The position numbers and the translations under genes were made by a program. Positions 12,901 to 45,640 of a DNA stretch of 64,000 nt are shown here, piece by piece (position 1 is the first letter of the stretch; the number at the start of each line of letters is the position of its first letter). The DNA lies in NCBI RefSeq assembly GCF_009914755.1, contig NC_060936.1; one strand, given 5' to 3'. Source of the stretch: the human T2T-CHM13v2.0 reference genome, Homo sapiens. The notes below the pieces were generated by a model. The model saw nothing but the letters and a program-made list of their open reading frames with translations. It did not search any database and was not told the DNA's origin.

Positions 12901-13209
<309 letters not shown>

Positions 13210-18344: not shown

Positions 18345-18545
18345 AGAACTTGTAATTATTTTACATTTTTAGATTTATAAAATGCTGTCATAAATGCCAG
18401 CTTATTTGATTCTCAGAATAAACCTCTGAGGTGAGCAGGGTTATTTTTTCCATTTTCTAGATGAGTGTACAGACTCAGAAGTCTGGTGACTTCTCCAGGA
18501 TCACTCACCCAGGAAGAGGCAGAGGTGAGACTCTAAGCCCTAACT
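18345..18545 (-). mobile_element. MIR
   Basis: atttgattctcagaataaacctctgaggtg...cattttctagatgag...gactcaga. Confidence 0.7.
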
Positions 18546-20050
18546 TTTTTTTTCTCCCAATATATCATGCGTACCCCCATGGTCTGAGACAGAAAATATG
18601 ACACACACTATAAAAACAGATCACTATCACCCCACTGCATCATTGTCTCCATTCTTATTTAATACCTGAATAAAACTGAGAAAAAGTTCACTTATAACAA
18701 TCCCAACTGCATAAACCTGGTCTGCAGCAGGGCTTCTGGCCCTCAGAAACAGGAAATAAAGTCATGCCTAAATGAAGTTGCCTTTTGCAAGTGGACTCCT
18801 TTGTTGCCCACACTGCTGGTACCTCATTCTCAGTGATTTGTATCCCACCTAACTTGAGAGTTACCACTTGCCTTCTCTCTGCCCTTTGCAATGGATTTTC
18901 AATCACAAGCTCAAGTTTCTTTTCCTGATCCCAACACTTCCAACCAACTTGTCCAGCTCTCCAACTATTTAATCTTTCTTTTCTGCTCAAATCCCATAGT
19001 TCCTGGCCAACATTCAGCCTCTCCTGCTTGCTCCTCTGCTTCCCCACTGAGCCTCTAAGTCTGTTCCCCTAAATCAAACCTCCGCCTCACATTCTGCCAT
19101 TTGGGAAGGCTTAGGAAGGCTGAGACAGAGGTTGTTAAAATATGTAATTATCTTTTAATTTGAGTTGCCAAGATAGATTAGACAGAAGTGCTGAGGTCAG
19201 CAGATGTGGCTATGTAGGTAACAAAGAGTGCAGCAGAAATGTGCAGAAGTTAGTAGGGAAATTACACAGATGTAGAGATAAGAAAATCAGTGGTTCTGGT
19301 GGCTAGGGAACTTCCCTGGTCAATCAAGACATTGGGCCACATAAAAGAATTAGTGTGTTTAAGAAGTAAAAATAATCAATTAGGTTTAAAAATCTTCTCT
19401 TTGAAAAACAATTTTTGACATTCATACTGGGCAAAATATGTATCTCCATATAGTCATTACTCATCACCTCAATGGTCTCAAACTGCATGAACCATTTTAA
19501 TTGAATAAAAAGTAGGGTACGTTACAGGCACATGATTTCACTTGTCTTCTTAGACGCCTGATGTCTCTCCTATTAAATAAAAGCAGTCTACTATATTGGT
19601 AAAATTATGTGACCTTGAATTAAATTACATCTCCTTGTTTTAAAATTCCCCAACTACCCTTACACTCTTTGTGTTAGCAAATATATCTACTTGGGAAGGT
19701 AAAAAGCTATCAAGGTTCTATTTCTCTACAGACTGCCACTCATTGAGACATGAAGCTTAAAAATGTAAAGAGGACTAAGTCTTTAATAACAACAAAGCCC
19801 TATTTTTTATAGTAGAATAAATGTCCTGACCAAAGAAACTATTTCACTCAGAAATTAAGCATATAATAGATCCAGTCACAGTAGCTGTCAGACTTAGGCA
19901 GTTGCATATGTACAAGGAATAGGGGCAGAGAATAGAAGACTATATATAGTAAGGTTATGATTCTCTGGTGTCGAAAGGAGTGTGTTGTTACAAACTCCCT
20001 CTTCTCTTGATCTTATCTGAACAAGAAAGTAAACAGAAAATTCTCATTAC

Positions 20051-20127
20051 CTCTCAAGGTCAGTGAGCCTGGAGGAATCCCAGAATCCTTTGGCAAAAGG
20101 ATTGCTATCTATTTTCAGCTTCGTTAT
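20051..20127 (-). pseudogene. TBX20: TBX20 exon-6-like pseudo-exon (77 nt)
   Basis: Translates ITKLKIDSNPFAKGFWDSSRLTDLE(R). Acceptor attctttctccAG and donor GTaatg are both intact. Confidence 0.96.
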
Positions 20128-21285
20128 CTGGAGAAAGAATGGGTACAAAACAGTATCATTTCTGAGGTCAAGGAAGTAAAATCATAAATAGTTTGTTCAT
20201 TCTCCATAGCACACCAAGAATATCTTAATGTTTCTCAGTGTCGTGAGAAGGGTGGAAAATGCTACACATGTTCACAAGAGGGACAAATCCCAGCCAGGTG
20301 GGATGGTAAGGGAAGATCTCAGAGAGGAGGTATTGAGGACAGGCTGGAGGTTGACAGATAGATACAATTAGGGAAGGGAGCCTTTGAGGCAAAAGTAGAT
20401 GTGAACTGGGGTGTGCAGTATTTAATATATTATATAATATGTCAAAGGCTAGGGCTGAACTGAGGAATGGGAGAACCACCTAAATGGGAGAATTATGCAG
20501 AATTCCAGCATTGATAGAGAATGAAAGAAAGAATGCATTTGACTTGGTGACATCTTTTTTAGTACTGTGAGTACATACACACACCATAATAGATAAAAGG
20601 TAAAATGGCCAATAATAGCCTCATGTTCAATATGATATTGATATACGTGACATAAATACATGACATAAAGCCTTCTGAATATAAATTTTCTATTTCCCTT
20701 TCCATTTGACTAAATCAGAATCAAATTAGTCCATCTTTTGTTATCCTTCCATGAAATGTTATTTATAAACTCTATGTTTTTATGGAAAAACACATTCTAA
20801 TAATAATCACAGTCTGAAATATTAAATGCTCATGCTGTGGTATTCAGAATTCCCATAGTACTAATATTAGTGTAGAAAGATCCATGAAATTATATGCCCC
20901 ATGCCTCTGAAGGAGAATACATTAAGTTGTAACGAAAAAATAAAGGAAACACTGATTAAAAGATACTCAACATGGAAAATACTGGAATTGTTAGAGCTGA
21001 AAGGAAGCTGAGAGACCATCTAGCCCATGGTCTTATCCGACAGATAATCACACACAGACTCAAAGAGCACAAGGGCCAAGATTCAGCTGGTCAGTAACTG
21101 AATTAGAACCAAGAAAACCTTTAAGGAATCATAGCTTCTCAGTATCAAAATTAGAACACATGTTCATCTCCAGAGAGAAATGCATGCTAAAGATTCTTAA
21201 CAGGGGAAAAAAGTTACAGGCATGTCTTCTTCTTTCAAAGTAAGGAGTACACAATCAAAACAGATAGTTTGAAATACTCTTGCCA

Positions 21286-21599
<314 letters not shown>

Positions 21600-24500
21600 G
21601 AAATACTCTTGCCAAAAAGCAACTTTCTCCCCAAAGTATATCTATAGAACACTTTAAACTGTTAACACATGAGGAATTTCTTTTTTCATTTCAAAAGAAA
21701 TGTGGTTTTTTCTTTTTCATGGTTTCTGAACACTTTCAGAACCAAGGCACAAGCTGCAAAGAAGCTATTTATGCCTCGCTTAAAATGAAACCCCCCATAC
21801 TAACCCAGCCAGAAAGACTCCTCTATCAATAACACTGGCAAATTATAAGATTAACTCTTTGATAATATTAATTTTTAAAAAATTTGACAGTGCCTCAGAA
21901 ATGCTCATTTTTAGTCCATGAACATTCACTGTTGAGCAGTTAGAAGAAAATAGCTATGCTATGAGCATTGGTAAACAGGGAAGCAAATAAGCTACATAAA
22001 TCAGAAACCTGTTCTCATGGACAGCAACAGCTAAGACATGTATATGAAGAGAGATACAGGAAAGAGTTTATAGCGAACCTTCTCACACACAGCTACCACT
22101 CTCTGAAGAATGAAGCCTTGTTTCATCCACTTATTCCAACTAGGACTTGTTTTTGAAAGTCAGTTTTGGGAGGGAAGGGGAAAATATTTTTTTTTTTTGA
22201 AATAAATTATAAACATCCTCTAAAGCCCAGGCAATCGATAGAGTCTACAATTACAAATATCAGCAAGATTTTAAAATCCTCCAGGACATGAGCTATGTCT
22301 CTTTGTAACGAACAACTATACTTAAAATACGTTCTACTTCTGAAGTACTTTATAGTTCATTAATATGCTTTCACAATAATTCATCAGCAAATAATGAGGA
22401 TAAATCACCATGCCCATGCACTGCGCTAGATGTCGGATGACATGCACAGCTAATCAGAGCTGGAACTGGCTCTAAATGATGCTAAAGAAGGTGACACCAC
22501 CTCCAACAGAGACATTAAGGGTAAATCAAACCCACATGAAAATTTCAAACTGAAACTGTGAGGTGGAGCAATAAAGGTAAGGCTGCCTTTAAATAGCACA
22601 TTTATAAAATTGAAAAGTAAACAGGCTTGCCAATGGATAAAATTTTCTACAGACAACAACAGATAATATATCTGATAAAAAATTCATTTTGAAAGAACTT
22701 TTTACAGCCATCTCTCTAAGATATGAATCATATCAAGCTTTTTCTGAGTCTTTACAAATGAAAAGGGTAGAAGGTATTACCTATCTGTTCTAATGATTAA
22801 AGATGGACTTTTGACATATTTTATCTCTGAAAAGAATTTTGAAAATCACATTTCTTGTTCTTCTTTCAAAAGATAAAGACTATTGGCTCAGAATATGATT
22901 GAGAAGTTATCTTAAATTCTCCAGTGCTCTAATACCACAGAAAATACATACTCTCAAAACACGTGTTGCTCAATTGATGTGTCACCATATCTAATAATAC
23001 TGCCATACTTTGAGCAAAGGAGTAACTTAAATTCAACATGAGTTTTCAGATGTCTTCGAATTTTCTCTCATTATGAGAATTATCTACTGCTAATATCATT
23101 TTAATCCAACTTTCATAATTCCTAGGAGTATCAGTGGAAATTTCTTTACATTTTGATATAATTTCAAACTTCAGGAAAGTTGCAAGAATAGTACAGGTGC
23201 TCTTATACACCCAGATTTACCAATTAGCTACAGCAATGATTTAATTTTAGTGCACTAATTAGAAAAAGAATTCAAAACAATTACTTTCTCTATTTCTATT
23301 TAATCTAATTCTAGGGAAAATAATTGCTTTTGCACGTGACAGCAAAAAAAAACTGAATGGATCTATTATCACTAAAATTGTATGGGAGCTCTGGGTTGAT
23401 GCTACACATTCCTGAACAGCTTTTATGGGGTATTAATAATTAGCAGCACAGAGATTGTGGATTAAACTTCTTTGTGAGCCCACCATGTTCCTTGTAGCCC
23501 ACTGTCACTAGACTCTGAATCTACTAGAGTGTCCACAATTAAGAACCCCACAAGTATTTGTTGAGCTTTACCTCAAGAACAAGCACAGTCAGAAATATGA
23601 TCTCACCTTTTCACCAATTATGAACTAAGTGAAACCATGAATTTACAGGAAAAGCATTTCACTTTTTAAATTTTAAGATAAAATAATTTTTAAATAGCAA
23701 AATTTTAACATTCTAGGTAATCATACGTTTTAAAAGGTCAGACATAGAGTTTATGCCACAATATCTAAATAAAGACCAGTAGCTATACAGAAATTCATTT
23801 TTAAGGTGTAGTTTTACATCTCTTTATGAAATTTGGGATAACTGAAAAAAAAAAAAACACTGAGAACTGATGAGAAAAAGAAGCTGAGTTACAGACAGTG
23901 ATTTCAGGTGGACACCATTTCATTCATGTCCGAATAGAGGATGCCTGCATCTTGTAATGTTGTTGAACAAATCACGTTTATCAAAAGTAATCCTAAAAGA
24001 AGTCTCAAAAATAAATCAGCTACCAAACATTGTATGTACAGAAACCAGAGATATGGCTTCTTTATAACTCACAAATTCTTAAAAGCAGCAATGTTTCTCA
24101 CTTCATCAAGAGAAAACACTAACAAGCAAGGTTAGTAGTATGTGCTTAAGAAATGCTACTGTTTAGTGTGGGTCTACATATATCCAAGTTACTAATTCAG
24201 TCCAAAACACAACCCTGCTTTTTCATGTATTTAAATAATATAGAACGTAATGCAATTCCTAACCAAAATGTTCACTCTTTTGGCATCTCTATTATCTTTA
24301 AGTAAATGTGTGGAGGGCAGATTTTGACACTACCTGCTGTGCAAAAGAGAAGGGGACCTTTTGCAGTGGTTGTTCTGTATAATATCACTGGACTCTGAAT
24401 CCAGCTAGGGTTCCCAGCCACAAGGTAAAATTGGCCCTCAGAGACCATTTCTCCAATTAGCAGGAAAATATCTGACCAAAGGCATCTAAAAATGAAACTT

Positions 24501-25644
24501 GACCTACACTTCAACTCTACAGCAATGGTCTGCCTGCTCAAAAACAATGCATGACCTTTCAATCTTAAATTATAAAATAGTTTGTTGAAAGTGTAATGTA
24601 TTTAGCTTTTATCCAATAATGTAAAGAAATGCAATCATTCCCTTGCAAAAACCAGAGAAAGAAATAGCAAATAAAAGGTCCCACTTTCATTACTTATAAA
24701 TGAAACTACAAGGCACAATAAATGAGGAAGTTTTTCACAAATTGTTTTGGAAACTCTGACTTGGATTTCAATAGACATAAAAATAGCAGTCATATCCAAA
24801 GCTTAAGATATATGAAAGTGGTCCTAAATGTGAATTTTTAAATCTTCCTCTCTTTTCTCCTCCCTCTTTGTTCTTTGTATGTGAAAAAATTCTAATACTA
24901 TACCTAGTATATATTTACTTTATTTCCTATATATTTATTATATGTTATAGGCTATTATATGCTGCAGGATACATTATTGTATGCTATAGGAAAATTACTA
25001 CACAAACTTGGTAGAGCAGTGAAGTCACAGTAGATGGTAGAAGGCCTAGAAAGAGTCAAGGATAACTTTAGAAAATGACATAGGACTAATGAAAATGCCA
25101 ACCCACAAGTTCATTTATTCACTGCACATATGTTTACTGAGCACCTACAAGAGGAATTTTGATTGGTCTTACGAGGTTTATAAACCATTTGCAAAACTGG
25201 CCTGTTAGGATACCAAATCAAATTGTTGACTATTAACTGGATTTCTATTTTAAAGGCATATGGCTTTGTGCAAGGGGCTATGGTTTTAAAGGTGGATATC
25301 GAAAAATAAACTCAGACATAGTAGAATCTATGAGAAAATTAATTCTGAATTTAGTCACTTCCATTGTGGTTACTCAGCAATGAAATGACATATTAATCTT
25401 ATTAATATTATACTTAACGCAAGAAAGAATAGCTGGGCACTGATGGCTGGATTTTGATCCCATTTATGATATTAATTAGAAATAAACCTTTGCCAAAGGA
25501 GCAACTTATGTTGAAATGTGCGTATTATTATCTTCAGCTATTTTCATTACCCATATTTTCAAAGTCAGTTTTCGATGACACTGTCAGTGGTCACCACTTC
25601 CTTGGCCTTGCAATCTATTATGATGCCACCAAAAAGGAGGAATT

Positions 25645-25830
25645 AAAACCCAGAAGATCAAAACCTTGTACTGGTTCTGTCACTTACCAGATTTGTGACC
25701 TTGGGTGAATGTCTTAACCACTCTGACCTCAGTTTCTAATTCTACAAAATGGGACTCGTGGGGCCTTCTTCAAGGCATACAGTGTCAGAATTAAATGAGG
25801 TGTTTAGAAAAAAATGTGGAAAGATTTTTC
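25645..25830 (+). mobile_element. MIR
   Basis: tgtgaccttgggtgaatgtcttaaccactctgacctcagtttc. Confidence 0.75.
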
Positions 25831-25839
25831 TAAATTAAA

Positions 25840-26265
25840 AGTAATAAATCCAAACCATGAATTTTAGCTGGATCCTAGTTCAGAGGGGGTTTAGGGGCAG
25901 TTGGTCTATCCTGAAAATTTTAATATAAACTGAATATTAGGTGATATAAAGAACAAATTCTTATAAATTTTCTTAGCTGTGATAAAGATGTTGGGATTAT
26001 AAAAATAATGTTCTAATTGTCAGAATAGGCTTACAGAGTGTTTAGAAGTCTCAGGAAGCATGCAACTTAGTTTCAAAAGGGGAGGGAAGAAAATGGGAAG
26101 GAAGAGGGGAAGTATGTTTGCATATAGAGAGGAAGAGGAAGGAAAGAGAAAATTTGGGGGAAAAGCAAATTTGGCATTGCTGAATCTGGGTGGAAGGCAT
26201 GTGAGGTTCATTTTACTATTTGTTTCATTTTTTGTATATCTGAAATTTGTTCTAAATAAAAAATC
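25840..26265 (+). mobile_element. L1ME-type 3' end
   Basis: ctggatcctagttcag...gctgaatctgggtggaaggcatgtgaggttcattttactatt...tgaaattt. Confidence 0.65.
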
Positions 26266-26529
26266 GAGTAGAAAAACAAGAATTAAATTAGAAAATGTCA
26301 TTAAAGATGTGGTTCCAGTTGGATACAGCGAGTACTAGCAGATATTCTGACCTCCTGTTTAGGATGATCATCATCGTGTTACACTTGCTGATGTGTGGTG
26401 TGAGCAGCACATTTGTTTAAAAAAAAATGAGCATAAAGAGTTGATGCTCTCTAAAATTGATGTCTCAGAGTCTATCAGGGCCAAGAGCTGAGAGAGGGTG
26501 AAGTTCTGCTTCTTTGGGAACAGCAGGCA

Positions 26530-26780
26530 CTCACAGCTTAGGGGTTAAGGGCACTCCCTCTTGAATCTTAACCACCTGAATTCAAATCTGCAATGGGAGG
26601 AGCAAGGTCACTTCAGATGACTTATTTAACTAGTGCCTCAATTACCCCAACTGTACGATGCTGAATAAAAATACAATTGTTCCTATCTCACGATATCATT
26701 GAGAAGATCAAGTGTGATTATGAATTCAAGTGGTGTCTTGCACATAGTAAGTACCCAAATGTTAGCTGTTATTCGTATTA
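26530..26780 (+). mobile_element. MIR
   Basis: cctgaattcaaatc...gatgacttatttaac...gcctcaatt...gcacatagtaagtacc. Confidence 0.65.
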
Positions 26781-28259
26781 TGTAAATAAGACCGTCCTAT
26801 GATGTGAGAGGTCCCGCCAACACTTACGCAGTCTTGCTCTCTCACCTATTAAACCAAATCTCAGGCATTATACTTTAAAGTTTACTAGAAACTTTAATTT
26901 TTGTTCATCTCTATAATTTTCACTAAAAAAAATAAAGAGGAAAACAATTTACCTCCTCCTGCTTTGGCCCTCTTTAAAAAGAATTATGATAAAAGCAATG
27001 AGGTTTCCACATGACAAGTGTCTATGTTATTCCCAAACATCAATAAGGTTTCTTAAGTGAGCATAAATTTAAATTGTTAGAATATATTAGCATGGTGTAT
27101 ATTATAAAAGCTATGAAATCAATTAGTATAAATGAATGGAATGTTTTCGGAATCTTTTTGGAGCCGATATTTGCATCCCACGTGCCCTCAAATAAATTAA
27201 AAACAGGATTGCTGGTTTCAGTGTTCCAGATTTGCAAAGAAACAGCATTAGCGCTTCAGGCCTTTGTAGGCTTCCATCTAAACCCCAACTTTTAGTTTGG
27301 GCATTCTCTGAATGTTTCCACTCCTGTGTTATGATCTTGGAGATAATTCAAAGGTTACAATACTTGCCTTTACTATAAGATCATCAGCATGATAGCAATT
27401 ATGCATTAATTTCTCTATCTCATTAACTAATACACCACTAAAATTTTAAAATACAAATGGTGACAAATTCTTTTTTTGACATTTCTGAGATAGCCCCATC
27501 ATAACCACGTCTTATTTACAGAGCACCTTACAGCTTCCAAAGGCTTAAACAAGCCTACACACACAACTACATTTGATCTTCACAGCAATCCCCTAAAATG
27601 GTCTGGTCAGTTCTTGGCCCTAATAGCTAGGTAAGGAAAACAGCAGCCACTGGTGAAATGAAATCTACTCAAAGTTGTATAGAAATCCTAGGAGAGTAAG
27701 CCTTACATACATCCACTCTGGCCATCTGCCCACATCCCTTTTCCAGGCTTCTACTACCTCATTTCTGTGAGGCTGGCTGTGATGTCAGCTTCATCTTGCC
27801 TGTCCCGAGGGTCTCCACACCACCTCGCTTCCAGGTGACCATCCTCCTCTGGACTCTGAGCCATCTACCAGGCAGCATCTAATAGCTACTCACTCAGAAC
27901 CCAAAACCTAACAACATCAAGACAAGAGGAGAGCAGTAGTCTTGGCTACCTATGACCAATGAAACAAACACAAGATACAAAGACACAGAGAGGTCATAAA
28001 CAACTGAATGTGTCAAGTAAACGGAGCATGTGACTTCCTTTTATATTGAAGTGTATGAAAAGGAATTCTATTTCTGGTCCTTTCTGATGGAGAGAAGTTA
28101 CTCACCCTCTCTTAGCTTCAGCTTCCTCACCTATGGAGTGTAGTACTGCCACAGCCCCTTAAGCTTACGCTGGGCACAAAAGAAGAAAATGTATGGGAAG
28201 TGTCTATCAGTACATGGCCCTTAGTATGGCCTTGATAAATATTTACTAAGTTGGAATAA

Positions 28260-28604
<345 letters not shown>

Positions 28605-28642
28605 TAATTTTAAATGTGATGTACAACAGAGAGTAAAAAATG

Positions 28643-28875
28643 TAGGTTGAGTATCCCTTATCTGAAATGCTTGGAACCAAAAGTATTTTGGATCTCAGAT
28701 TTTCTCAGATTTGGGAATTTGCATTATACTTACAGGTTAAGCATCCTTAATCCACAAATCTAAAATCTGAAATGCTCCAGTGAGCATTTCCTTTGAGTGT
28801 CATGTCAATGCTCAAAAAGTTTCAGATTTTGGAGCATTCAGATTTTGGGTTTTTCGATTAGGGATACTCACCCTG
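28643..28875. mobile_element. Tigger4a (MER46A/Zombi) MITE
   Basis: TIRs aggttgagtatccctta / tagggatactcaccct; about 233 bp. Confidence 0.85.
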
Positions 28876-29422
28876 CATATAACTCAATAATATAAATTAG
28901 ATATCTTGATGTTACATACTATAGTTTACTATCTAAAAAGACATTTAAAATCATTTTACCAGAATTATCTCACCCTAAATTATAGCTGAATAAAACCTCA
29001 CAAAATATCTAAAGTATCAGCAGTTTGGGCAGTTGGATAGAATAGGTGTGTTTAATTCAGCAGAAAAACTGAACTTTTAAATTTTATGAAGCAACAAGAA
29101 CATGGTTATACATGTTACCAGGAGGAGGAAAAGGAGGCAAGTAACCTTCTGGAGAAGAAAATGTGAGAAGGCAGATTGGGGTAGGTGTGGGTGGGGAAGT
29201 GGGCAGTTAAAAACCTGACCCATAATGTAGAGATTCTAGAAAATACAGTGTAATACACAGTCACTCAACACACTCTTAGAGGTCCTAGCACTGAAACTCA
29301 ATAGCTCTCTGCAAAGTGAACATCCATTTTGAGTACTGGGATATCACTTCTCTCCAAGAAAATATAAGAACCTCCTAAATCCTTCTCTTATGCAGGAACT
29401 AAATTGTGAACTGTACACTCAT

Positions 29423-29581
29423 CAGTTGATTCTGGTAGGCAGTGACTGCCGTAAAAACTGTTTCTGGAAGGATGAAAGTTCTAAATTCTTCAGACTTCAG
29501 GTTGAGCAATGAGGCTGTGTGGTCTTTCTTCTTAATGATGTGCACCCTTGGCTGGTACTTATGCATTGAGTTCAAAATGAT
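29423..29581 (-). pseudogene. TBX20: TBX20 exon-5-like pseudo-exon (159 nt, phase 0-0)
   Basis: Reverse complement translates [53 protein letters not shown]. Acceptor ctttttgttgtAG is intact; donor position reads ATgagt. Confidence 0.96.
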
Positions 29582-30217
29582 CTACAACAAAAAGATGGAA
29601 AGTACTGAATTTTACATACTTATACTGCTCAACAGGCCAAATTACAATGAGGCAAGAAAGAACCAAATGGTCTACAATTTCAAAGTCAATTTTAAGATAT
29701 GGATCTACCCTTTCCAGCCTTAAGGCAAATCATTTTCACAAGATACTGCAGAGTCATTGTTGTGAATCACATTTTACCCAAACAACTGCAAACCACACAG
29801 GTTGTTTCAAGTGTCCTTTCTAAAATGGTAGGGGGAGAGGTCATCTGAAGGATAAGTTTTACCGATTTTTAAAAATCAAGTATTTTAAATACTTTTGTTT
29901 TGCTAGTCTAGTTAGACCAAAGGACGCATGTCTAAATTTTCTAAAATAAGAAATCACATATTCTAAGAGGCCAGATTATTATTTATGGAGAAAAAAATAA
30001 AAGAGTTTAGAAAAGCAGTGGGGTGTTAGACAGACTTGGGTAAAAATTTTGAATTTGTGAGTTTCTAGTCCTTTAATCCTTAGCCAAGTGATCTCATCTC
30101 CCCAATTCCTAGTTTATGCAAATGAATATGCAAAGCAAAAACAGAATGGCATTTATGGTACTAAATCATGTATAGCTTGGTCATAATGATAAAACTGAAA
30201 TGATTATTAAAAATTTC

Positions 30218-30541
30218 TTTTTTTTTTTTTTTTTTTTTTGAGATAGTGTCTCACTCTGTCACCCAGGCCGGAGTGCAGTAGTGCAATCACGGCTCACTGC
30301 GATCTTGACCGCCCAGGCTCAAGCGATTCTCCCATCTCAGCTTCCTGAGTAGCTGGGACTACAGACATGGATCACCACACCTGGCTAATTTTTGTTTTGT
30401 TTTGTTTTGTTTTTGTTTTTTTCGGAGAGATGGGGTCTTACCATGTTGCCAGGCTGGTTTCGAACTCCTAGACTCCAGCGATGCGACCGCTGGGCCTCCC
30501 AAAGTGCTGGGATTACAGGTATGGAGCCACTGCACCCAGGC
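30218..30541 (-). mobile_element. AluJ
   Basis: Antisense dimer with J-type text (ccaggctcaagcgat) and (TTTTG)n linker. Confidence 0.92.
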
Positions 30542-30976
30542 AAGAATTTTAATAATAACCTTTAGGTTAAAGTAAGCCTCAGGTTAATCTCAAGGAAATC
30601 AAATTTCCTGGGAAATCAAAAAAAAAATCTATTTAGATTTTTCTGTCTAACTGGTACTTTCCATGAAGATAGTACTTGCCAAATAAAATATGGTAGCAAT
30701 AAAGCTGTGGATAAAACATAAGCTATAGAATGGCTCACCTTTAAAATGTCCCAGGTTACTAAAAACAATTTATAAAGAAAATGGTACTGAGAACGTCAGC
30801 AGGGCCTTTAAAAAGTGCAAAACATGTTCTCAGAGATGAACTGTAAGACAGAAAGGCAAGAAAGTATTGAGAAGTAAAGCTAAGCTATAAATCAAGGGGA
30901 TGAGGTTTAAAAGAATCCACAGTATAATCAGAAATACATCATCTCTTAAATTAAAAAATAATAATAACAGTAATAA

Positions 30977-31278
30977 GCTGGGTGCAGGGGCTCATGCCTG
31001 TAATTCCAGCACTTTGGGAGGGCCAAGGCAGGCCGATCTCTTGAGGCCGGGAGTTTGAGATCAGGCTGGACACATGGTGAAACCCCATCTCTACTAAAAA
31101 TACAAAAATTAGCCAGGCATGGTGGTGCACACCTGTAATCCCAGCTACTACTCGGGAGACTGAGGCATAAGAATCGTTTTAACTGAGAGGCGGAGGTTGC
31201 AGTGAGCTGAGATTGCGCCACTACACTCCAGCCTGGGCAACAGAACGAGACACAGTCTCATTAAAAAAAAAAAGAAAA
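30977..31278 (+). mobile_element. AluS
   Basis: Full dimer with A tail. Confidence 0.92.
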
Positions 31279-31583
31279 GTAATAATAGTATAAGCTTCAG
31301 TTTCCAAAATTTGCATTCAGCTCTCCCATGTTGACCCTTCTTTTTTAACTGTCCCTACCACCTACCTCCAGGACTGTATTTATTTAGCAGTAGAGGGAAT
31401 GAAATATAATAGGAGTAGAAGAAATATTTTTCCACTGCCGTGGGACAACTGTCTACTCCTTCCTGATGTAAAATTATCAAAACTAGAATAATTAGCACTG
31501 CCTCAGAGACTAGACACCATATTTATTAGATGGTCAAAATCATTTCCTCATGCCTGATTATGTCCTATATTTGCATATTGTCA

Positions 31584-31946
<363 letters not shown>

Positions 31947-32285
31947 TTAGTAGAAAGAGAAAAGAATACCACCCCTTTTAGAGCAGCCAATATTACCTAA
32001 AGTCAGATTTTTGATTGCATATTAAGCTTGCCCAAGTCAAGTGGTGCTCAGAGGTTAATGAACCCACTCTGGAAATAAATGGGTAGTGGGTATCCTCTTT
32101 ACTTTTCTCTGGGGCCAGTGGAAAACACATAGGGAGGAGTGTTCAAATGTTATTATACTTTTTTCAGGTGAGTTTCCAGCAGGCAATGTCTACTACTTAG
32201 CAATTTCCTTTTGTAGGATTCATGTTTTGGTACCAGCAATTCTCCTGCAGTACAACAGGCCTATATCCCTAAAATTGAGCAAGCA

Positions 32286-32600
32286 GGCTACGTGCAGTGG
32301 CTGATGTCTGTAATCCTAACACTTTGGGAAGCCAAGGTGGGAGGACTGCTTGAGGCCAGGAGTTCAAGACCAGCCTGTGAACATAGTAAGACCCTGTCTC
32401 TACCAAACAAAAAAAAATTAATGTTTTTAATTAGCAGGCCGTGGTGGTGCACACCTGCAGTCCCAGCTACTTCAGAGCCAGAGGCAGGAAGATCACTTGA
32501 GCCCAGGAGTTTGACGCTGCAGTGAGCTCTGGCTGCTCCACCCCACTACAGCCTCGGTGACAGCAAGACCCTCTCAAAATAAAATAATAATAAAATAAAT
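32286..32600 (+). mobile_element. AluJ
   Basis: J-type gaggactgcttgaggccagg and ttgagcccaggagtttga. Confidence 0.9.
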
Positions 32601-32854
32601 AGAGCATGCAAAACTTATGGTGCCTATTCAAAACACGGCTTCATTTTTTCCACAGCCTTTCAGTGAGACTAGGTATTTCTCTGACCTTGAAAATGTTTAG
32701 AGCAACTTCTACAACTTTGATCGTCATTTTTAGGCAATAAAAAGTTTTCCATCACTTAGCCAAAAACATAAACTCAGTTTAGTAACTGATATGTCCAATC
32801 CACTGAAACAGTCAAAAACTGTTCAAGGTTAATCTTCAAGTCTCCCTGAGTTTG

Positions 32855-33034
32855 CTCCGAAGTAGCTGGGGTTACAGGCACCTGCCACCATGCGGGGTTA
32901 ATTTTTGTATTTTTAGTAGAGATGGGGTTTCACCATGTTGGCCAGGTTGGTCTTGAACACCTGACCTCAGGTGATCCACCCACCTCAGCTTCCCAAAGTG
33001 CTAGGATTACAGGCCTGAGCTATTGCACCTGGCC
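32855..33034 (-). mobile_element. AluS lacking its 3' end and poly(A) tail
   Basis: Left arm and linker are intact; the sequence stops abruptly at ctccgaagtagctggg with no tail or TSD. Confidence 0.9.
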
Positions 33035-33884
33035 AGTCAATATGTTTTGAAAGTTGTTTGGCTTTTTTATTGTTTTGTAATGAAATTTAACCTTCAGATT
33101 AAACTGTTCTATATTTTAAATTCTTTTGTGCTCATAAAGTTACAATAACTGTTGGGCAGTTAATTTAATCTCCCTTGATTAAATAAATTGTTGCTTATAG
33201 GTGTTGCCATAGGTGCCATTCTTCACTCTGTTTAGTAGCTAGCGTCAACAGGGCTTTTGACATTATGGCAAACTATTTGGTAACCTATTTATTTGGAAAT
33301 AATATAGAATATGGGATAAATTATAAAATATAGCAAGGCATTTTGGGTCAGTAGATTTTATAATTTATTTTTGCTTTCAGTTGGTAAAGGGGGAAGGAAT
33401 ATAATATGGAAAATGCTTGAGTGTCTGAGTAGTGGAATTGCAGACCCATCATGAGTGGGTGTTAATGTCAGAGCTTCTGGACATTTGAGGCAGAGGAGGT
33501 GGTTAGCAAGCCAGGGAGGGCCACCTCCTGAGGATGGATGGCCCCAGTTCTGGCACTCATCTCCATGAGCCCCATCCACTCTTGTAACTCTTTCCCTGGG
33601 TACCATGAGTGCACCAACTCATTCCCCTGAGTACCACACAGTGGCTAGAAATCTGGAGAATTTGCAACCTCTTATCTCTTGAATTCTTTGGAAATACTGG
33701 CTGCCTCGCAGTACTCACCATTCCTTCGCTGATTGTGAACATTTGAAAAAACAAGCAAACAGAATTAAACAAAGGCAAGGATCATTCATCTTAAACTTTC
33801 TAATATTCACTAAATTTATCTTGATTACCTTTAGGCTTCAGCCCACAGGAAAATGTTTTTCTTCCATGATTGTTGGATGTGAGT

Positions 33885-34058
33885 CAGTGATTCTCAAAGT
33901 TTGCTACACATTAGAATCACTTGGGAGCTTTTAAAAATCCCAATGCCCAGAGCTCCTTGGGCCAATTAAAGCAGAAGCCCTAAGAATGAAACCCAGGCAT
34001 CAGTATTTTTTAAAACTCCCCAGACAATTCCAATATAGAGCCAAATTTGAGAATTAGG
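33885..34058. mobile_element. MER5B-like
   Basis: cagtgattctcaaagtttg...cattagaatcacttgggagcttttaaaaatcccaatgccc. Confidence 0.8.
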
Positions 34059-34220
34059 GCTGCAGTGTAAATGACTCTGGGCCATGGTGGAAATAAAGGA
34101 AGGATACATAGCGAAGTTCTTCCTTAGCTTTCACAGATGACAATCAGCTAACATTACAAGTATATGCTGCTTTCAAAAATTCAACAAAGGAAAAACAAAA
34201 TTTATAAAATAATGATTTAA

Positions 34221-34811
<591 letters not shown>

Positions 34812-34848
34812 GAGATAAAACAAAATTTACATTAAAATATCTTCTTTT

Positions 34849-35251
<403 letters not shown>

Positions 35252-35670
35252 TTAGGAAAGTGTGTATTAATATAGTCTACTATTGTCTCAACCAAATATG
35301 TATGTCTCAAATCTGAATTTGTAATCATCCCCAAATCGGATCCCCCCCTTCTGTCTTCAATAAATCTGTCAATAATGAAACCCCCATTATTCCCTGGTCT
35401 TGAACGCAGATGTGTTGACTTTATTTTTTAATTTTATTTATAATTCTTATTTAATAACGTCCTATAACTATCTCTTTAAAATGATTCTTGTTTTCTGTTT
35501 TTGGTAATACTTCCAGAAGGTCCACTTTCTTAAGAATAGGCCCAGTTCTATTCCAAGATTATTACTACAGCCTCCTAATGTGTCTCCCTGCTGTCTATAT
35601 GAATTTTTAAAAAAATACCACTGCTCTCATGCTCTACTTTTCTCAACAAGTTTCAAAATCTCCCATTACA

Positions 35671-35957
35671 TTTTTTGTTTTTGAGACCGGATCTCACTCT
35701 GTCACCCAGGCTGGAGTGCCGTGGTGCAATCATAGCACACTGCAGCCTCGACCTCCAGGGCTCAAACGTTCCTCTGCTTCAGCCTCCTAAGTAGCTGGGA
35801 CTATAGAGGTGCACAACACCATGCCTGACTAAGTAATTTTTGTAGAGACAGGGTCTCATATGTTTTCTAGGCTAGTCTTGAATTCCTACCCTCAAGCAAT
35901 TTCCTGTCTCTGCCTCCCAAACATTGGGATTACAGGTGTGAGCCACTGGGCCCGGCC
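35671..35957 (-). mobile_element. AluJ
   Basis: Antisense dimer; TSD tcc(c/a)attacattt. Confidence 0.92.
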
Positions 35958-36282
35958 TCCAATTACATTTAGAATAAAGCTTATACTCTTTAGCTTGGCC
36001 TACTAACCCTTCTGCAATTTTACCCTATAGTCCTGCCTTTCACTTCTCACTTGCCATGGATGCTAGATTTACTCTAGCCACATCTATTTTTGTAAATCCT
36101 TTCTCTGAAGAATATCCTCCTTGCTACATTCTTTCTATCCATATTTTACTCTCTTTTAGGCCCCAAATCAAATCCACTGTCCTCCAAGATGTCTGCTGGC
36201 TGGGCCACCGCTGTCTTTGAAGGTCTCTCTATCTCTTTCAACCTCTATTAATATTGCTCTCTTTTTCTCTCTTTCTCTCTCA

Positions 36283-36500
36283 TTATAAGCTGAATATTTA
36301 TATCCTCCCAAAATTTGTGCGTTAAAATCCTAATGCTCAAGGCACTGGTATTAGGAGGTGATACCTTCAGGAGGTAATTAGGTCATAAGGGAAGAGCCTT
36401 CATGAATGGAATTAGTGCCCTTAGAAAATAGGCCCAAGGCAACTCATTCTTCCTTCCCACCATGTGAGGATACAGAGAGAAGGCACTATCTATGAAAACA
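36283..36500 (+). mobile_element. MLT1A-type LTR, 5' part
   Basis: ggtattaggaggtg...gccttcatgaatggaattagtgccctta...ccaccatgtgaggatacag. Confidence 0.8.
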
Positions 36501-36516
36501 ATTCTAAATCTGAGAG

Positions 36517-36547
<31 letters not shown>

Positions 36548-36671
36548 GTAATTCTCCTCAGCATTATCTGTAAGAGAAAAAAAATTTAAATTTCTATAGA
36601 ATAATATTAATGATGGTATAGCCACCTTTCCAATACTATGTATTCACTAAAAATATTGTTTAAAAAAGACT

Positions 36672-37045
36672 AAGCCATACAATGGAATACTCCTAAGCCA
36701 AAAAAAATGAAGTACTGATTTATACTACAGAGTGGTGAACCTTGAAAACACTGTGCTAACTAAAAGAAGCCAGACATAAAAGGCTACATATCATATGATT
36801 CCACTTAACATGAAATGTCCAGAATAGACAAATCTATATAGAGAGAAAATAGATTGGTGGTTTCCAGGAGTTGGAGAAAGAGGGAAATGGGTAGTTACTG
36901 CCAGCAGGTATGAAGTTTATTTGGGGGGCTGAAACTTCTGGAATTAGTGTTAATGGTTATACAACCTCAATATACTGAAAAACACTGAATTACATTCCTT
37001 TAAAGGGTGAATTTTATAGTATGTGAATGATATCTGAATACATTT
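36672..37045 (+). mobile_element. L1MB/MC 3' end
   Basis: ccatacaatggaatac...gaaccttgaaaacactgtgct...gaaatgtccagaatagacaaatctata. Confidence 0.8.
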
Positions 37046-38907
37046 TTTTAACTATGCCAATATGGAAGATGTATATGACATAACATGGAGGAGAAAAGTA
37101 AGGAACAAAATTATATAAAGAGTAGCAAAAATTTCTCAAGTATAAAAGAAGTTTTTTAAAAGAACAGAATGTACTGATACACTAATAGGAAAAACACTGG
37201 TAGGAAAAAAACAGAAACACTGAAGGAAAAAAAAGTATTTTTTCAGGCAGTTTATACAAAGTTAGGTGAAATATCTTTATTAACGCACAACCATATTAAT
37301 GCAAAGCTGTGTTTTGGTAGGAGTTCTGGGAACCACCCCATAAGAGTCCCCGTGACTTAGTTCCCCGGAACAAATGCCAGTTTATACTTAGAATTTATTT
37401 CCCTGGGCATCACACACAAACACTCAGTTGATAAGCTGGCTGAAAACAACTTAATAATGTAGCTATTTTAACTTAGGCATCTATTCTATGAATTATAAGA
37501 ACATGATTGGCTTTCACTGTGTATTGTTAAAGAACTGGTGATGACTTGTGCCTGGGCAGACTAGTCCCCAAGTTGCTGGCTAGTCTGAATAAGAGTCAGG
37601 AAGGACAGTCCCTGACTGGCCCCATACCAGGGAATGCCTGGTGGCCACACTGCTGCTGACCCTGAGACAACACAGTCCACATCATGTCCACACCTCTACT
37701 GTCAGTCAATGCTTCTCCATCTCTGATGAAAGTGACTCCACCAAACCAACTAGGAAGTCTCAATTTCCTTCAGAGACCCACAGGCTGCCAAGAGGACCCA
37801 ACCCTCCTCTTCCACACCAGCATGAGCTAAATTCTCCCTGGAGTAAAAAAAAACTGTAGCCTCCATCTCTACTCCTTATTTATTTTTTGTGCAAAAAAAT
37901 GTTCATGGCATCTTTATAAAAACTAAAACTGGAAACAACCCAAGTGTCCATGAACAGAACATCCATGCTCCATTCGTCCTGGAGAATAAACTGTGGTACA
38001 TCTCTTCACTTTAGCTAGCACTTCCATCTCCATTCTCCACTGGACCTCAAAAAAGGAAAGCTGAGGCACTAATGACTCCTAACCTTATTTGTACCTTGTG
38101 GGTTGGTATTTCTGAGGAAAGGCATACTCATGCAAGGAGAGAAAAAGAATCTGATGCTAACTTCCATCTCTGTTACTAGAAAATGAATTCTTCATCAGAG
38201 TAATATGCCTAAACTTGCCTAAGCCATACAAGTATTGATAAAACCTAAAACTAAGAGTCACATGTTTGGAACTTGCTGTTTTATTTTAATCAATAAAGCT
38301 TCTTCATTTTAAAAGATGATTTCCATTAAGAGAGTCTCTCAGAAGCTTCCTGGATTTGTTATGAGTTGTAAGGGCCAATGAGAAAAACATTCGAGTCAGT
38401 ATTTCCAGGAATCACAAAACTGTTCACACAGTGATGTAAGGAATTTGACAAGTGAATGTACAGCATGTGCAGTGTTATTTTTATTTTTAGAGCATGTTGC
38501 GGAGTTGTTAAACCCTCAAATATGCATCAGACATATTCCCAAGCACTCATTTGCTGGGAATAAATTTCATAGATTTAACTCATCTGTGCTGTTTTAAGGA
38601 TCCAGGATATATTCTAAAGAACAAGAGAATGAATATTAAATACAAAATAGAAATTTCCCTAGGAATTATTTTTTTCATGTACTATTCCTCATGTATATTT
38701 CATCCACAATTTGCTAAGTAAACTGCTCATTGTTCAAGCCAGTAAAGATAATAGTCTTCATCAGAGGTCTCCTCTGGAGTCAGACACACCTAGATTCAAA
38801 TCCCAAGTCCATCTATTTCTATAAGTGTTCTTGGATAATGTTCTCAACTTTCCTGATCCATAAAATAGGAAGTTACTTTTTTCTCTAGGGGATACGCATG
38901 TACACAT

Positions 38908-38968
<61 letters not shown>
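38908..38968. repeat. (TA)5(TG)25 microsatellite
   Basis: Direct reading. Confidence 0.97.
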
Positions 38969-38971
<3 letters not shown>

Positions 38972-38983
38972 TTTGTTGGGTGT

Positions 38984-39560
38984 TGTATTAGTCAGAATTC
39001 TCCAGAGAAACAGAACCAACAGGGTGGATGGATGAAAGAATAAATAGATGGATGGACAGATGAATGGATCGATGGATGGACGAACTGACAGACAGACAGA
39101 TAATCGGTAATTTGCTCATGCAATTTCGGAGTCTAAGACCCAAGGTCTGCAGTCAGGAAGCTGGAGACCCAGCAAAGCCAATGTATAGTTCCAGCCTGAG
39201 TCCCAAGTCCTGAGCACCAGGAGAGCCAGGTTCTCTCCAGGAGAGCCAAGGTTCAGTGTGAAAGCAGCAGGCTTGAGACCCAAGAAGAGCCAATGTTTCA
39301 GTCTGAGTCTAAAGGCCAGAAAAGACCAATGTCCTAGCTCAAAGCAGTCAGGGAGTAGTTCCCTCATATTTGAGGAAGAGTCAGCCTTTTTGTTCTACTC
39401 AAGCCTTAACTGATTGGATGAGGCCTATCCACATTAAGAAGGGCAATCTGCTTTACTCAGTCTACCAAGCTAAATGTTAATTTCATCCAAAAACACAGAC
39501 ACCCAAAATGTTTGACCAAACATCCGGACACCCCATGGCCCAGTCAAGTTGACAACAAAC
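38984..39560 (-). mobile_element. MLT2 (ERVL) solo LTR
   Basis: tgtattagtcagaattctccagagaaacagaaccaa...(TGGA)n...actgattggatgaggcc...cccagtcaagttgaca. Confidence 0.85.
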
Positions 39561-39655
39561 ATACTTTCAAATATTAGCTATAATCTATAGCTATCAAAAA
39601 ATTATCTAAGAAGTATAAATGCCCAAAAGGTTTGTGTCAGTTTGCAAGACAATAG

Positions 39656-39970
<315 letters not shown>

Positions 39971-41248
39971 ATACTTATTTTTAAACACAGCATCCTTTCC
40001 CAGCCTTCCTTACCCATATGCAGTTTCAGTAGTATGTAACATATCCTCTATTTACTCAGCATTATTTCATCGTTCTGGATGAGAAGAGAATTAGGAAACT
40101 TCTGGAAAGTTAGCTGCTCTATTAATTGTTTACAGATTCCATAATGACAACTTATGGCACTTATGAGCACTGGCGCTCAGATAATCAGACATTTTAACAA
40201 CATTTTACTTTTCATGACTCCAGAAGATTTTGCATTAGTCTAGACTCTTCTGGGAAAGAAGAGAATAAAATTAATAGCCAATGCAACTTCAACAGCTTTT
40301 TTAAAAAACTAAGAGTGAAATATTCATCTCTGTTGTCACCAAATCCAAGAAAGTCACAGATCAGATATACTATCCAGCAGCCTGCTTCAATTTCTCTTTA
40401 TAATACTGAATATATTTCTTTCTTGAACAGAAATCAAAGTGGTAATATACCTTTCACTCTAGTGTAGTTGTGGATTCAAAGGAAACCCAATTTATAGACT
40501 ACAGACTGACTTTACATTTTAAAAGGCGGTAAAGGAATAATCTGTAATTTCTACTGCATTCTAAAGAAATGGAAATCAGAAATTCAAAACATTTAAACAT
40601 CAAACTAATGATTGTTTTAGAAAAATCACTCCAAGAAAATCTGACTTTCTCGCTTTTCTCCTGGCAGATCATATCGTAATGTTATTCATGGGAATATTCT
40701 TCATAATTCATGAAAGATAATTTTTCTATACATTTAACACTTCTGCTGCTTTTATTTTCCTGCTGTTGAAGGATCAATAATAAAGTCTGTGTAGGCCCAC
40801 TGGAGACATGAATAATAACCCAAAATCCTCTTAAAAATCTAGACACAGTCACAGCATCGTTACTTTCTATTGAATAGTAATTTATTCTTATGAAGGCTTC
40901 TGACAAGCATTTTCACCCTTTGTACCTAAGATTTTATTTGATCCATATGATTTAAGCAGATAAAATAGATGAGTAAAATGCCTACATTTTCTCTAAAGAC
41001 AGGGTCAACTGTTCAGAATTGCTTTTTTCCTCTTACAATTCTATCATACTCACTTTAGTGTCACCATGGAAAAGTCAATTCGAAAAATATGTTATTATAT
41101 CTTTCAGTACAGTTCTCTGTGTTTCAGAAAAGAATGGTGTACACACCATGGCACAAGTGAGAGGATGAGTTTCTTGCTATAGCTCCCCTCCTGTCCTCAC
41201 ATATATCTTCACAGGAATGGGGTGGGTGGGGGGGGAGGTTAAATTTTA

Positions 41249-41599
<351 letters not shown>

Positions 41600-41736
41600 T
41601 CAGGTAATTTTCTTCAAATCTGCTTAGAAATTAAGAAGAAAAGTCAGAAACATTGCATCTCTAAAAGATTGCTTTATTCCTTCATCTGCCTCTATTAACC
41701 AAGGAAAATTTGAAAGATAGGGAGAGGGAGAGAAAG

Positions 41737-43071: not shown

Positions 43072-43102
<31 letters not shown>

Positions 43103-44764: not shown

Positions 44765-45640
<876 letters not shown>

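What the first reader, a model, noticed from the sequence alone, without database searches (positions are those of the whole stretch)
29399..29581. Hidden TBX20 exon-5 copy with a dead splice donor (GT->AT) and FPET->LPET
Seen: an open 53-codon minus-strand exon, missed by the ORF track, encoding [14 protein letters not shown]...[11 protein letters not shown]. The acceptor is intact, but 29421-29422 give ATgagt where GTgagt is required, and codon 29468-29470 is CTT (L). Established: this is the T-box core, FPET is conserved across T-box proteins, and [16 protein letters not shown] is TBX20-specific. Inference: a recent, nearly identical but disabled duplicate; read-through of the dead donor adds MSVQFTI* (stop 29399-29401).
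Basis: partly seen in the sequence, partly recalled or inferred. Interest (0 to 1): 0.8.

Follow-up and report, generated by a model that had tools for sequence, protein, structure and literature searches.

The report
Known truncated TBX20 pseudogene, exon 5
This is exon 5 of an already annotated, 5'-truncated copy of the heart gene TBX20, carried to chromosome 12 with the DPY19L2 duplication and now decaying, so it is real but ordinary.

Summary
Window 29423-29581 (minus strand) is an open 53-codon T-box exon (Pfam PF00907, E 1.5e-15). The human assembly holds exactly two copies: this one and chr7:35381904-35382144, the TBX20 gene, at 98% identity.

At the two flagged sites chr7 has GTGAGT and TTT (Phe), while chr12 has ATGAGT and CTT (Leu). 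Phe is present in 120 of 120 listed TBX20-type proteins.

The exon is not hidden. It is the first of four exons (5-8) of RefSeq's curated pseudogene LOC100418730. The copy keeps its introns and is collinear with chr7 at about 97.8% over 59.8 kb. It ends 534 bp upstream of exon 5, at window 30115, so exons 1-4 and the promoter were never copied.

That breakpoint is the edge of the ~168-kb 7p14 segment that relocated DPY19L2. The 27-kb direct repeat that mediates the globozoospermia deletion starts three bases later. This architecture is already in print.

A gorilla "TBX20-like" protein model shares three derived residues with the human copy but keeps Phe. The Leu change therefore arose after the human-gorilla split.

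Verdict: already known, low interest.

The parts
29423..29581 (-). Copy of TBX20 exon 5 (codons 219-271 of the 447-aa protein), 53 open codons. This is the first exon of pseudogene LOC100418730.
   Evidence: It has 2 differences from chr7 in 159 nt: ATA>ATC (silent) and TTT>CTT (F256L).
29582..29583 (-). Intact AG splice acceptor of exon 5.
   Evidence: identical to chr7.
29421..29422 (-). Mutated splice donor: AT where the chr7 gene has GT (G>A at the +1 position).
   Evidence: Alignment A2.
29468..29470 (-). CTT (Leu) where chr7 has TTT (Phe 256 of the F-x-E-T motif).
   Evidence: Phe is present in 120 of 120 listed homologues.
29399..29422 (-). Read-through tail MSVQFTI followed by a TAG stop (29399-29401), used if the exon is not spliced.
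29584..30115 (-). Last ~0.5 kb of TBX20 intron 4. Together with the acceptor at 29582-29583 this makes the 534 bp retained upstream of exon 5. Homology to chr7 ends at 30115 (= chr7:35382639).
   Evidence: (query 1-534, 98%).
30116..30118 (.). Junction of the chr7-derived segment with chr12 sequence. These 3 bases match neither parent in register.
20128..29420 (-). Copy of TBX20 intron 5, collinear with chr7 at about 98%.
20051..20127 (-). Copy of TBX20 exon 6. Both splice sites are intact. It carries two replacements, R287W and I295L, both shared with the gorilla TBX20-like model.
1..20050 (-). Copy of part of TBX20 intron 6. It continues beyond the window's left edge to exon 7 (about -7036..-6924) and exon 8 (-10802..-10462).
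30119..57230 (+). Distal 27-kb low-copy repeat (LCR2), a direct repeat of chr12:63508307-63536196. It is the NAHR substrate for the DPY19L2 deletion and abuts the pseudogene.
   Evidence: The two repeats differ at 2.34% of 26,867 aligned sites. Described in print in PMC3605140 and PMC9132208 (passages read).
43631..43678 (-). Human counterpart of the 16-codon first exon (MPDDAAVWKVKVIVKM) of the gorilla 'TBX20-like' protein model, followed by a GTGAGA donor. It lies inside LCR2.
   Evidence: A variant copy lies in LCR1.

Best explanation
The element is exon 5 of LOC100418730, an unprocessed, 5'-truncated pseudogene of TBX20.

**Origin.** A ~168-kb piece of 7p14 was copied into 12q14.2. On chr7 it spans 35220014-35382639; on chr12 it spans window -137800..30115. 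It carried the ancestral DPY19L2 gene and, at its edge, the 3' part of neighbouring TBX20.

**Why it is dead.** One breakpoint fell in TBX20 intron 4, 534 bp upstream of exon 5. Only exons 5-8 arrived, without a promoter, a start codon or the first half of the T-box. The fragment was non-functional from the start and has since drifted neutrally. It has 15 coding differences in 687 nt and 9 amino-acid replacements, all on the chr12 side. It has no stop or frameshift yet.

**The two flagged changes.** The G>A at the +1 donor position and Phe256>Leu are two of these neutral hits. F>L arose after the human-gorilla split. By inference from the gorilla gene model, the donor change probably did too.

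**Shown versus inferred.**
- Shown: two loci, the base states, collinearity including introns, the breakpoint, absence of exons 1-4, and intact other splice sites.
- Inferred: direction of the duplication (taken from Carson 2006), neutrality, and dating.
For: - **Two loci only.** The first look found 2 candidates and both were scored.
- **Base states.** GT and TTT on chr7, AT and CTT on chr12.
- **Collinear homology.** Four collinear megablast blocks run from window -31755 (the limit of the chr7 sequence I fetched) to 30115. They give 1,336 mismatches in 59,841 aligned sites, p = 0.0223.
- **Exon content.** tblastn with a 447-aa TBX20 (P0048) finds exons for residues 41-447 on chr7. Across chr12 window -40000..64000 it finds only residues 219-447.
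- **Other exons.** The acceptors and donors of exons 6-8 and the TGA stop are identical to chr7.
- **Coding comparison.** The chr7 exon 5-8 translation is identical to the green-monkey TBX20 tail (P0016), so all 9 replacements are derived on chr12. The counts are Nd 9 over 525 sites and Sd 6 over 162 sites, giving pairwise Ka/Ks 0.46. This is about 0.9 for the chr12 branch if the silent changes are split evenly between branches.
- **Gorilla model.** P0080 (NCBI name 'TBX20-like', 245 aa) covers exons 5-8. It shares R287W, I295L and R311P with the human copy, keeps F256, and reads exon 5 joined to exon 6.
- **Published context.** Carson et al. 2006 (PMC1475853, abstract and passages read) show that the chr7 locus is the ancestral DPY19L2 site and chr12 the descendant.
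- **Annotation.** The hub's RefSeq table gives the same exons under 'T-box 20 pseudogene'.
Against: - Nothing in the sequence contradicts this reading.
- The 229 copied codons are still fully open and three of four splice-site pairs are intact. Some residual or chimeric transcript therefore cannot be ruled out from sequence.
- Pairwise Ka/Ks of 0.46 is below 1. This is explained by constraint on the chr7 partner, but with only 15 changes it is not a strong test of neutrality.
- Only one human assembly was examined. Whether AT and Leu are fixed in humans is unknown.
- No expression data were available.
Confidence: 0.95

Rival explanations
1. The locus is or was a chimeric gene. A first exon supplied by the chr12 repeat (human counterpart at window 43631-43678) would splice to TBX20 exons 5-8. 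The product would be a short protein with the C-terminal third of the T-box and the TBX20 C-terminal region. In humans the donor mutation would have killed or altered it.
For: - NCBI's gorilla model P0080 has exactly this structure.
- Its 16-residue N-terminus is encoded 16 of 16 identically in the human window and is followed by a GTGAGA donor.
- The exon 5-8 frame is open in both species.
Against: - The gorilla entry is an automatic gene model. I saw no transcript evidence for it.
- Replacements in both species are scattered and numerous (9 human, 10 gorilla in 229 codons), as expected without constraint.
- The human copy has lost the exon 5 donor.
- RefSeq curators list the human locus as a pseudogene with no transcript.
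- The same small ORF also sits in LCR1 with an indel, so it looks incidental.
Confidence: 0.04
2. The exon is still spliced in humans, either through a non-canonical AT-AC (U12-type) intron or through a nearby cryptic GT.
For: - AT is the first dinucleotide of AT-AC introns (recalled).
- GT dinucleotides lie 4 and 6 bases downstream, at 29418-29417 and 29416-29415. The second would keep the frame by adding Met-Ser (sequence).
Against: - The site reads ATGAGT, a U2-type donor with +1 mutated. It does not resemble the U12 ATATCC consensus (recalled).
- The exon 6 acceptor is an ordinary polypyrimidine-AG site identical to chr7.
- The cryptic sites GTGTAC and GTACAG are poor matches to GTRAGT.
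- Even if spliced, the transcript would lack exons 1-4.
Confidence: 0.01
3. The two lesions are private or polymorphic variants of the sequenced haplotype, or assembly errors, and not features of the human pseudogene as such.
For: Only one assembly was available, and the locus is copy-number variable (PMC3605140, abstract).
Against: - The differences sit among a uniform ~2% divergence across 38 kb. Every 4-kb bin lies between 1.5% and 2.4%, which is typical of old fixed paralogous variants.
- RefSeq's exon ends at 29423, the same boundary.
Confidence: 0.05

Closest known systems
LOC100418730, 'T-box 20 pseudogene' (NCBI RefSeq, curated genomic)
   Same: It is the same object. The strand matches, the in-window exons match (29423-29581 and 20051-20127), and the 3' end matches (-10802, which is the TGA stop I found).
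   Different: Nothing differs. This report adds the base-level lesions, the breakpoint, the divergence figure and the gorilla comparison.
TBX20 (7p14), the parent gene
   Same: The copied region is 98% identical across exon 5 and its flanks. Exon-intron structure is the same for exons 5-8.
   Different: The chr12 copy lacks exons 1-4 and upstream sequence. It has a G>A at the exon 5 donor and 9 amino-acid replacements.
The DPY19L2 relocation duplicon (LCR7A to the 12q14.2 LCR; Carson, Cheung and Scherer 2006, PMC1475853)
   Same: The pseudogene is the distal end of that duplicon. Homology to chr7 runs without a break in order from the DPY19L2 side to window 30115.
   Different: The paper's main text never mentions TBX20 or T-box (0 occurrences of 'tbx' and of 't-box'). 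Its supplementary tables are old .doc files that I did not open, and they may list the coordinates.
Segmental duplications flanked by large direct repeats (Damert 2022, PMC9132208; Elinati 2012 as cited there)
   Same: The DPY19L2 insert is flanked by 27-kb direct repeats, and the junctions show a few extra bases. I reproduce this: LCR1 ends 3 nt before the insert and LCR2 starts 3 nt after it.
   Different: That paper states the chr12 integration predates mammalian divergence (passage read). The 2.2% insert divergence and 2.3% repeat divergence found here, together with Carson 2006, point to a recent ape-age event.

Membership tests
T-box domain (Pfam PF00907) | Profile match above the gathering score. 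| tested here: met
   58 bits against a cut-off of 26, E 1.5e-15.
T-box domain (Pfam PF00907) | A complete DNA-binding domain is encoded at the locus. | tested here: not met
   Exon 5 covers only profile positions 116-164 of 182. tblastn finds no copy of residues 1-218 in chr12 window -40000..64000.
Unprocessed (duplicated) pseudogene | Homology to the parent extends through introns and flanks. | tested here: met
   59,841 aligned sites at p = 0.0223, collinear, including introns 4 (part), 5, 6 and 7.
Unprocessed (duplicated) pseudogene | A lesion that prevents production of the parental protein. | tested here: met
   5' truncation at window 30115 and donor GT>AT. No stop or frameshift occurs in the 229 copied codons.
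Unprocessed (duplicated) pseudogene | Relaxed selective constraint. | tested here: inconclusive
   Pairwise Ka/Ks is 0.46 from 9 replacement and 6 silent changes. All replacements are on the chr12 side, which is consistent with neutrality on that branch. The count is too small for a test.
Processed (retrotransposed) pseudogene | Introns absent, exons contiguous, poly-A tail. | tested here: not met
   The exons lie 9 to 27 kb apart with parental introns between them.
Segmental duplication flanked by large direct repeats | The same host sequence is repeated in direct orientation immediately on both sides of the insert. | tested here: met
   LCR1 is chr12:63508307-63536196. The insert is 63536200 to window 30115. 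LCR2 is window 30119-57230, all on the plus strand.
U12-type AT-AC intron | 5' splice site consensus ATATCC (recalled from memory). | tested here: not met
   The site reads ATGAGT, one base away from the parental GTGAGT.

The most novel reading that the evidence does not exclude
In the African-ape ancestor, the junction of the chr7 insert with the chr12 repeat may have created a chimeric transcription unit. A repeat-derived first exon (human counterpart 43631-43678) would have spliced to TBX20 exons 5-8, as NCBI's gorilla 'TBX20-like' model suggests. The human lineage would then have lost it through the exon 5 donor mutation. That would make this a lineage-specific gene birth and death at a segmental-duplication edge.
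Probability: 0.04. Interest if true: 0.4.

Novelty: already known. Interest (0 to 1): 0.1.

Why it matters
**Biological value.** This is a textbook by-product of a segmental duplication: a gene fragment clipped at the duplicon edge and left to decay.

**Practical value.**
- The copy is 98% identical to TBX20 exons 5-8. Short reads from chr12 that mis-map to TBX20 could mimic a +1 G>A splice-donor variant after codon 271. They could also mimic missense calls such as F256L, R287W, I295L, Y309N, R311P, P419S, R437H, S440F and T444M in a congenital-heart-disease gene. This is inference; I did not test it.
- The pseudogene lies between DPY19L2 and the distal repeat. It is therefore removed or gained together with the common DPY19L2 deletion or duplication, so its copy number varies among people.

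Tried and rejected
- **Wrong-strand alignment.** My first alignment used the wrong strand of locus L002 and was meaningless. I repeated it correctly.
- **Swamped genome search.** The whole-genome DNA search with window 10000-29422 was swamped by interspersed repeats. Of 29,485 candidates only 38 were scored, and no chr7 row appeared. I fetched chr7 directly and aligned it by megablast instead.
- **Processed-pseudogene reading.** Rejected because the introns are present.
- **U12 AT-AC intron reading.** Rejected on the donor sequence.
- **Literature on the pseudogene itself.** One search over four names ('TBX20 pseudogene', 'LOC100418730', 'TBX20P', 'T-box 20 pseudogene') returned 1 paper. It holds only 'tbx20p' once, in a database paper that I did not open. 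I found no paper discussing this pseudogene. The absence holds only for the open-access library that was searched.
- **Novelty of the flanking 27-kb repeats.** I considered whether this architecture was a new observation. It is not (PMC9132208).
- **PRDM9 13-mer scan.** There are 6 matches against 0.7 expected. None falls inside the annotated NAHR stretch 40689-41401 of this repeat copy. I did not pursue this.
- **Second large protein search.** I ran no further search on chimpanzee or orangutan 'TBX20-like' models, because the answer would not change the verdict.

Full report
**1. The observation**

On the minus strand, window 29581-29423 is an open 53-codon stretch preceded by ...ttgttgtAG and followed by ATGAGT.

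- The stop-to-stop frame is 29399..29581 and reads [14 protein letters not shown]...[18 protein letters not shown], then MSVQFTI, then TAG.
- The Leu codon CTT is at 29470-29468 and the AT is at 29422-29421.
- The peptide matches Pfam T-box at 58 bits (cut-off 26, E 1.5e-15) over profile positions 116-164 of 182.
- It matches 14 distinct solved T-box chains at E <= 1e-3. In the printed TBX5 and TBX3 alignments the corresponding residue is Phe.

**2.

I searched the window's own assembly with 29380-29620. The first look gave two candidates and both were scored. One is the window itself. The other is chr7:35381904-35382144, minus strand, 98% identical, E 2e-114.

After one mis-oriented attempt, I aligned 381 bases of each locus, which gave 99% mean column identity.

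- Within exon 5 and its donor there are exactly three differences.
- Codon 1 is ATC on chr12 and ATA on chr7, which is silent.
- The Leu codon is CTT on chr12 and TTT on chr7.
- The donor is ATGAGT on chr12 and GTGAGT on chr7.

The chr7 exon translation is part of the human TBX20 isoform 2 protein that one search returned (P0010; checked). The prediction of two loci, with GT and TTT at 7p14, is met.

**3. What the copy comprises**

I fetched 70 kb of chr7 and 40 kb of chr12 to the left of the window. Megablast gives four collinear blocks from window -31755 (the edge of what I fetched on chr7) to window 30115. They contain 1,336 mismatches in 59,841 aligned sites, so p = 0.0223 +/- 0.0006. Every 4-kb bin of the TBX20 part lies between 1.5% and 2.4%. 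The copy is therefore genomic and includes introns.

I ran tblastn with a 447-aa TBX20 (P0048). It finds the following.

| Locus | TBX20 residues found |
|---|---|
| chr7 | 41-127, 128-181, 182-218, 219-271, 272-297, 297-335, 335-447 |
| chr12, window -40000..64000 | only the last four of these exons |

The four chr12 exons are:
- exon 5 at 29423-29581
- exon 6 at 20051-20127
- exon 7 at about -7036..-6924
- exon 8 at -10802..-10462

These coincide with RefSeq's LOC100418730 ('T-box 20 pseudogene', 4 exons, span -10802..29581) in the table added by the hub. The exon in question is the fifth coding exon, provided residues 1-40 lie in one exon. That exon is outside the chr7 stretch I fetched.

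**4. State of the copy**

- The acceptors and donors of exons 6, 7 and 8 and the TGA stop are identical to chr7. The only splice lesion is the exon 5 donor.
- I concatenated the four exons of each locus, 690 nt each. There is no stop, no indel and 15 nucleotide differences.
- There are 9 amino-acid replacements: F256L, R287W, I295L, Y309N, R311P, P419S, R437H, S440F and T444M.
- There are 6 silent steps.
- By the Nei-Gojobori method, pN = 0.0171, pS = 0.0370 and Ka/Ks = 0.46.
- The chr7 translation is identical to the tail of green-monkey TBX20 (P0016). All nine replacements therefore happened on the chr12 copy.
- If the silent changes are shared equally between the two branches, the chr12 branch has Ka/Ks near 0.9. 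That is consistent with neutral drift, but 15 changes do not make a test.
- Phe at position 256 is present in 120 of 120 proteins listed. Of these, 73 have F-P-E-T and 47 have F-[V/T/Q/S]-E-T. So Leu is unique to this copy, and the Pro of 'FPET' is not universally conserved.
- The string [16 protein letters not shown] is present exactly in 113 of those 120 proteins.

**5. Why the copy starts at exon 5**

Homology to chr7 continues only 534 bp upstream of exon 5, to window 30115 (= chr7:35382639). From 30119 onward the sequence matches chr12:63508307 onward instead, at 98%.

This second match is the 27-kb low-copy repeat.
- LCR2 is window 30119-57230.
- LCR1 is chr12:63508307-63536196, which is window -165693..-137804.
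- Both are in direct orientation. They have 630 mismatches in 26,867 aligned sites, p = 0.0234 +/- 0.0009.

At the other end, LCR1 stops at 63536196 and chr7 homology (chr7:35220014 onward, 96%) starts at 63536200. Both junctions are sharp, each with three bases that neither parent explains in register.

The layout is LCR1, then a ~168-kb chr7-derived insert, then LCR2. The TBX20 fragment is the last ~41 kb of the insert. The duplication breakpoint in TBX20 intron 4 explains the absence of exons 1-4 and of the promoter. The insert and the flanking repeats have statistically indistinguishable divergence (2.23% and 2.34%). This fits one event or two nearly simultaneous ones, which is my inference.

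**6. What is in print**

- **Carson, Cheung and Scherer 2006** (PMC1475853; abstract and passages read). They showed that human DPY19L2 on 12q14.2 is a recent segmental-duplication copy. The ancestral locus on 7p14, syntenic with mouse, became the pseudogene DPY19L2P1. Their main text has no occurrence of 'tbx' or 't-box'. I did not open their supplementary tables.
- **Coutton et al. 2013** (PMC3605140; abstract and passages). They describe the 200-kb deletion by NAHR between the two 28-kb repeats.
- **Damert 2022** (PMC9132208; passages). This paper lists DPY19L2 among segmental duplications flanked by large direct repeats. It reports 1-4-nt microhomologies or extra bases at such junctions and favours replication-based template switching. 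The architecture in section 5 is therefore known.
- **A dating conflict.** Damert 2022 states that DPY19L2 integrated on chromosome 12 before mammalian divergence. That does not fit the ~2.2% divergence measured here or Carson's synteny argument.
- **Search for the pseudogene by name.** A full-text search under four names returned one paper with a single incidental 'tbx20p', which I did not open.

**7. Age and order of events**

One search returned a gorilla protein that NCBI names 'TBX20-like' (P0080, 245 aa).

- It consists of a 16-residue N-terminus followed by exons 5-8.
- It shares R287W, I295L and R311P with the human chr12 copy.
- It has 7 replacements of its own and lacks the 6 human-specific ones, including F256L.
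- Its N-terminal 16 residues are encoded 16 of 16 identically at window 43678-43631, inside LCR2, followed by GTGAGA.

I infer that it is the gorilla orthologue of this pseudogene. The duplication then predates the human-gorilla split, and F256L arose afterwards. The gorilla model also joins exon 5 to exon 6, so its donor is presumably intact. That would place the G>A change after the split as well. This rests on a gene model, not on gorilla DNA that I saw.

Three replacements are shared and about 6.5 are lineage-specific. The paralogue divergence is 2.2%. My recalled figures for species divergence are about 1.6-1.75% for human-gorilla and about 3.1-3.4% for human-orangutan. Both lines of evidence put the duplication somewhat before the human-gorilla split, roughly in the great-ape or African-ape ancestor. 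These species figures are from memory, not from a call.

**8. Mechanism and rivals**

- **Best reading (0.95).** This is a dead-on-arrival gene fragment, carried along by a large duplicative insertion and decaying neutrally. The donor change and F>L are two of about 15 coding-region hits.
- **Chimeric transcription unit (0.04).** This would start in LCR2, as in the gorilla model. The only support is an automatic model and an open frame. The same small ORF exists with an indel in LCR1.
- **Continued splicing by an AT-AC intron or a cryptic GT (0.01).** ATGAGT is one base from the parental U2-type donor. The nearby sites GTGTAC and GTACAG are weak.
- **Private or polymorphic lesions (0.05, not exclusive of the best reading).** I could not test this with one assembly.

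**9. Verdict**

However, the object is a curated RefSeq pseudogene inside one of the better-studied human segmental duplications. It is already known and of low interest.

The useful residue is practical. There is now a list of nine paralogous amino-acid differences and one apparent donor variant. These could contaminate TBX20 variant calls. The pseudogene's copy number also changes with the common DPY19L2 deletion and duplication.

Noticed in passing
window 30116-30118 and 30119-57230; chr12:63508307-63536199 (window -165693..-137801): The chr7-derived insert is bracketed exactly by the two 27-kb direct repeats, with 3 unexplained bases at each junction. Insert divergence (2.23%) and repeat divergence (2.34%) are indistinguishable, which suggests one event. 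The architecture is already described in PMC9132208.
   Followed up: yes
[quoted passage not shown]: The paper dates the chr12 integration of DPY19L2 to before mammalian divergence. The ~2.2% divergence measured here and Carson 2006 indicate a recent primate event. This looks like a slip that confuses the old DPY19L1/L2 split with the recent relocation.
   Followed up: partly
window 43631-43678 (-), with a variant copy in LCR1 at about chr12:63522570-63522697: A 16-codon ORF with a good GT donor is identical to the N-terminus of NCBI's gorilla 'TBX20-like' model. The LCR1 copy has an indel but is also open. It is probably an incidental or ab initio exon.
   Followed up: partly
outside the window, window coordinates -9448..-7733 (chr12:63664552-63666267): A 1.7-kb block is present on chr12 but absent from chr7, in the pseudogene's intron 7. 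It starts with CCCTCT-type hexamer repeats and ends in an A-rich tail. By recall this looks like an SVA retrotransposon inserted after the duplication.
   Followed up: partly
window 52884-57230 compared with 30119-32854: Divergence between the two 27-kb repeats is uneven. It is 1.3% at the end next to the pseudogene, about 2.1% in the middle, and 3.9-4.3% at the far end. This may reflect gene conversion or local rate differences.
   Followed up: no
window 6490, 28540, 29125, 34891, 50025, 56628: The PRDM9-type 13-mer CCNCCNTNNCCNC occurs 6 times against 0.7 expected by shuffling. Three matches are the identical CCACCTTGGCCTC and a fourth differs from it by one base. None lies within the annotated NAHR stretch 40689-41401 of this repeat copy. 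One (50025) lies about 0.6 kb from the annotated meiotic recombination region 50656-51323.
   Followed up: no
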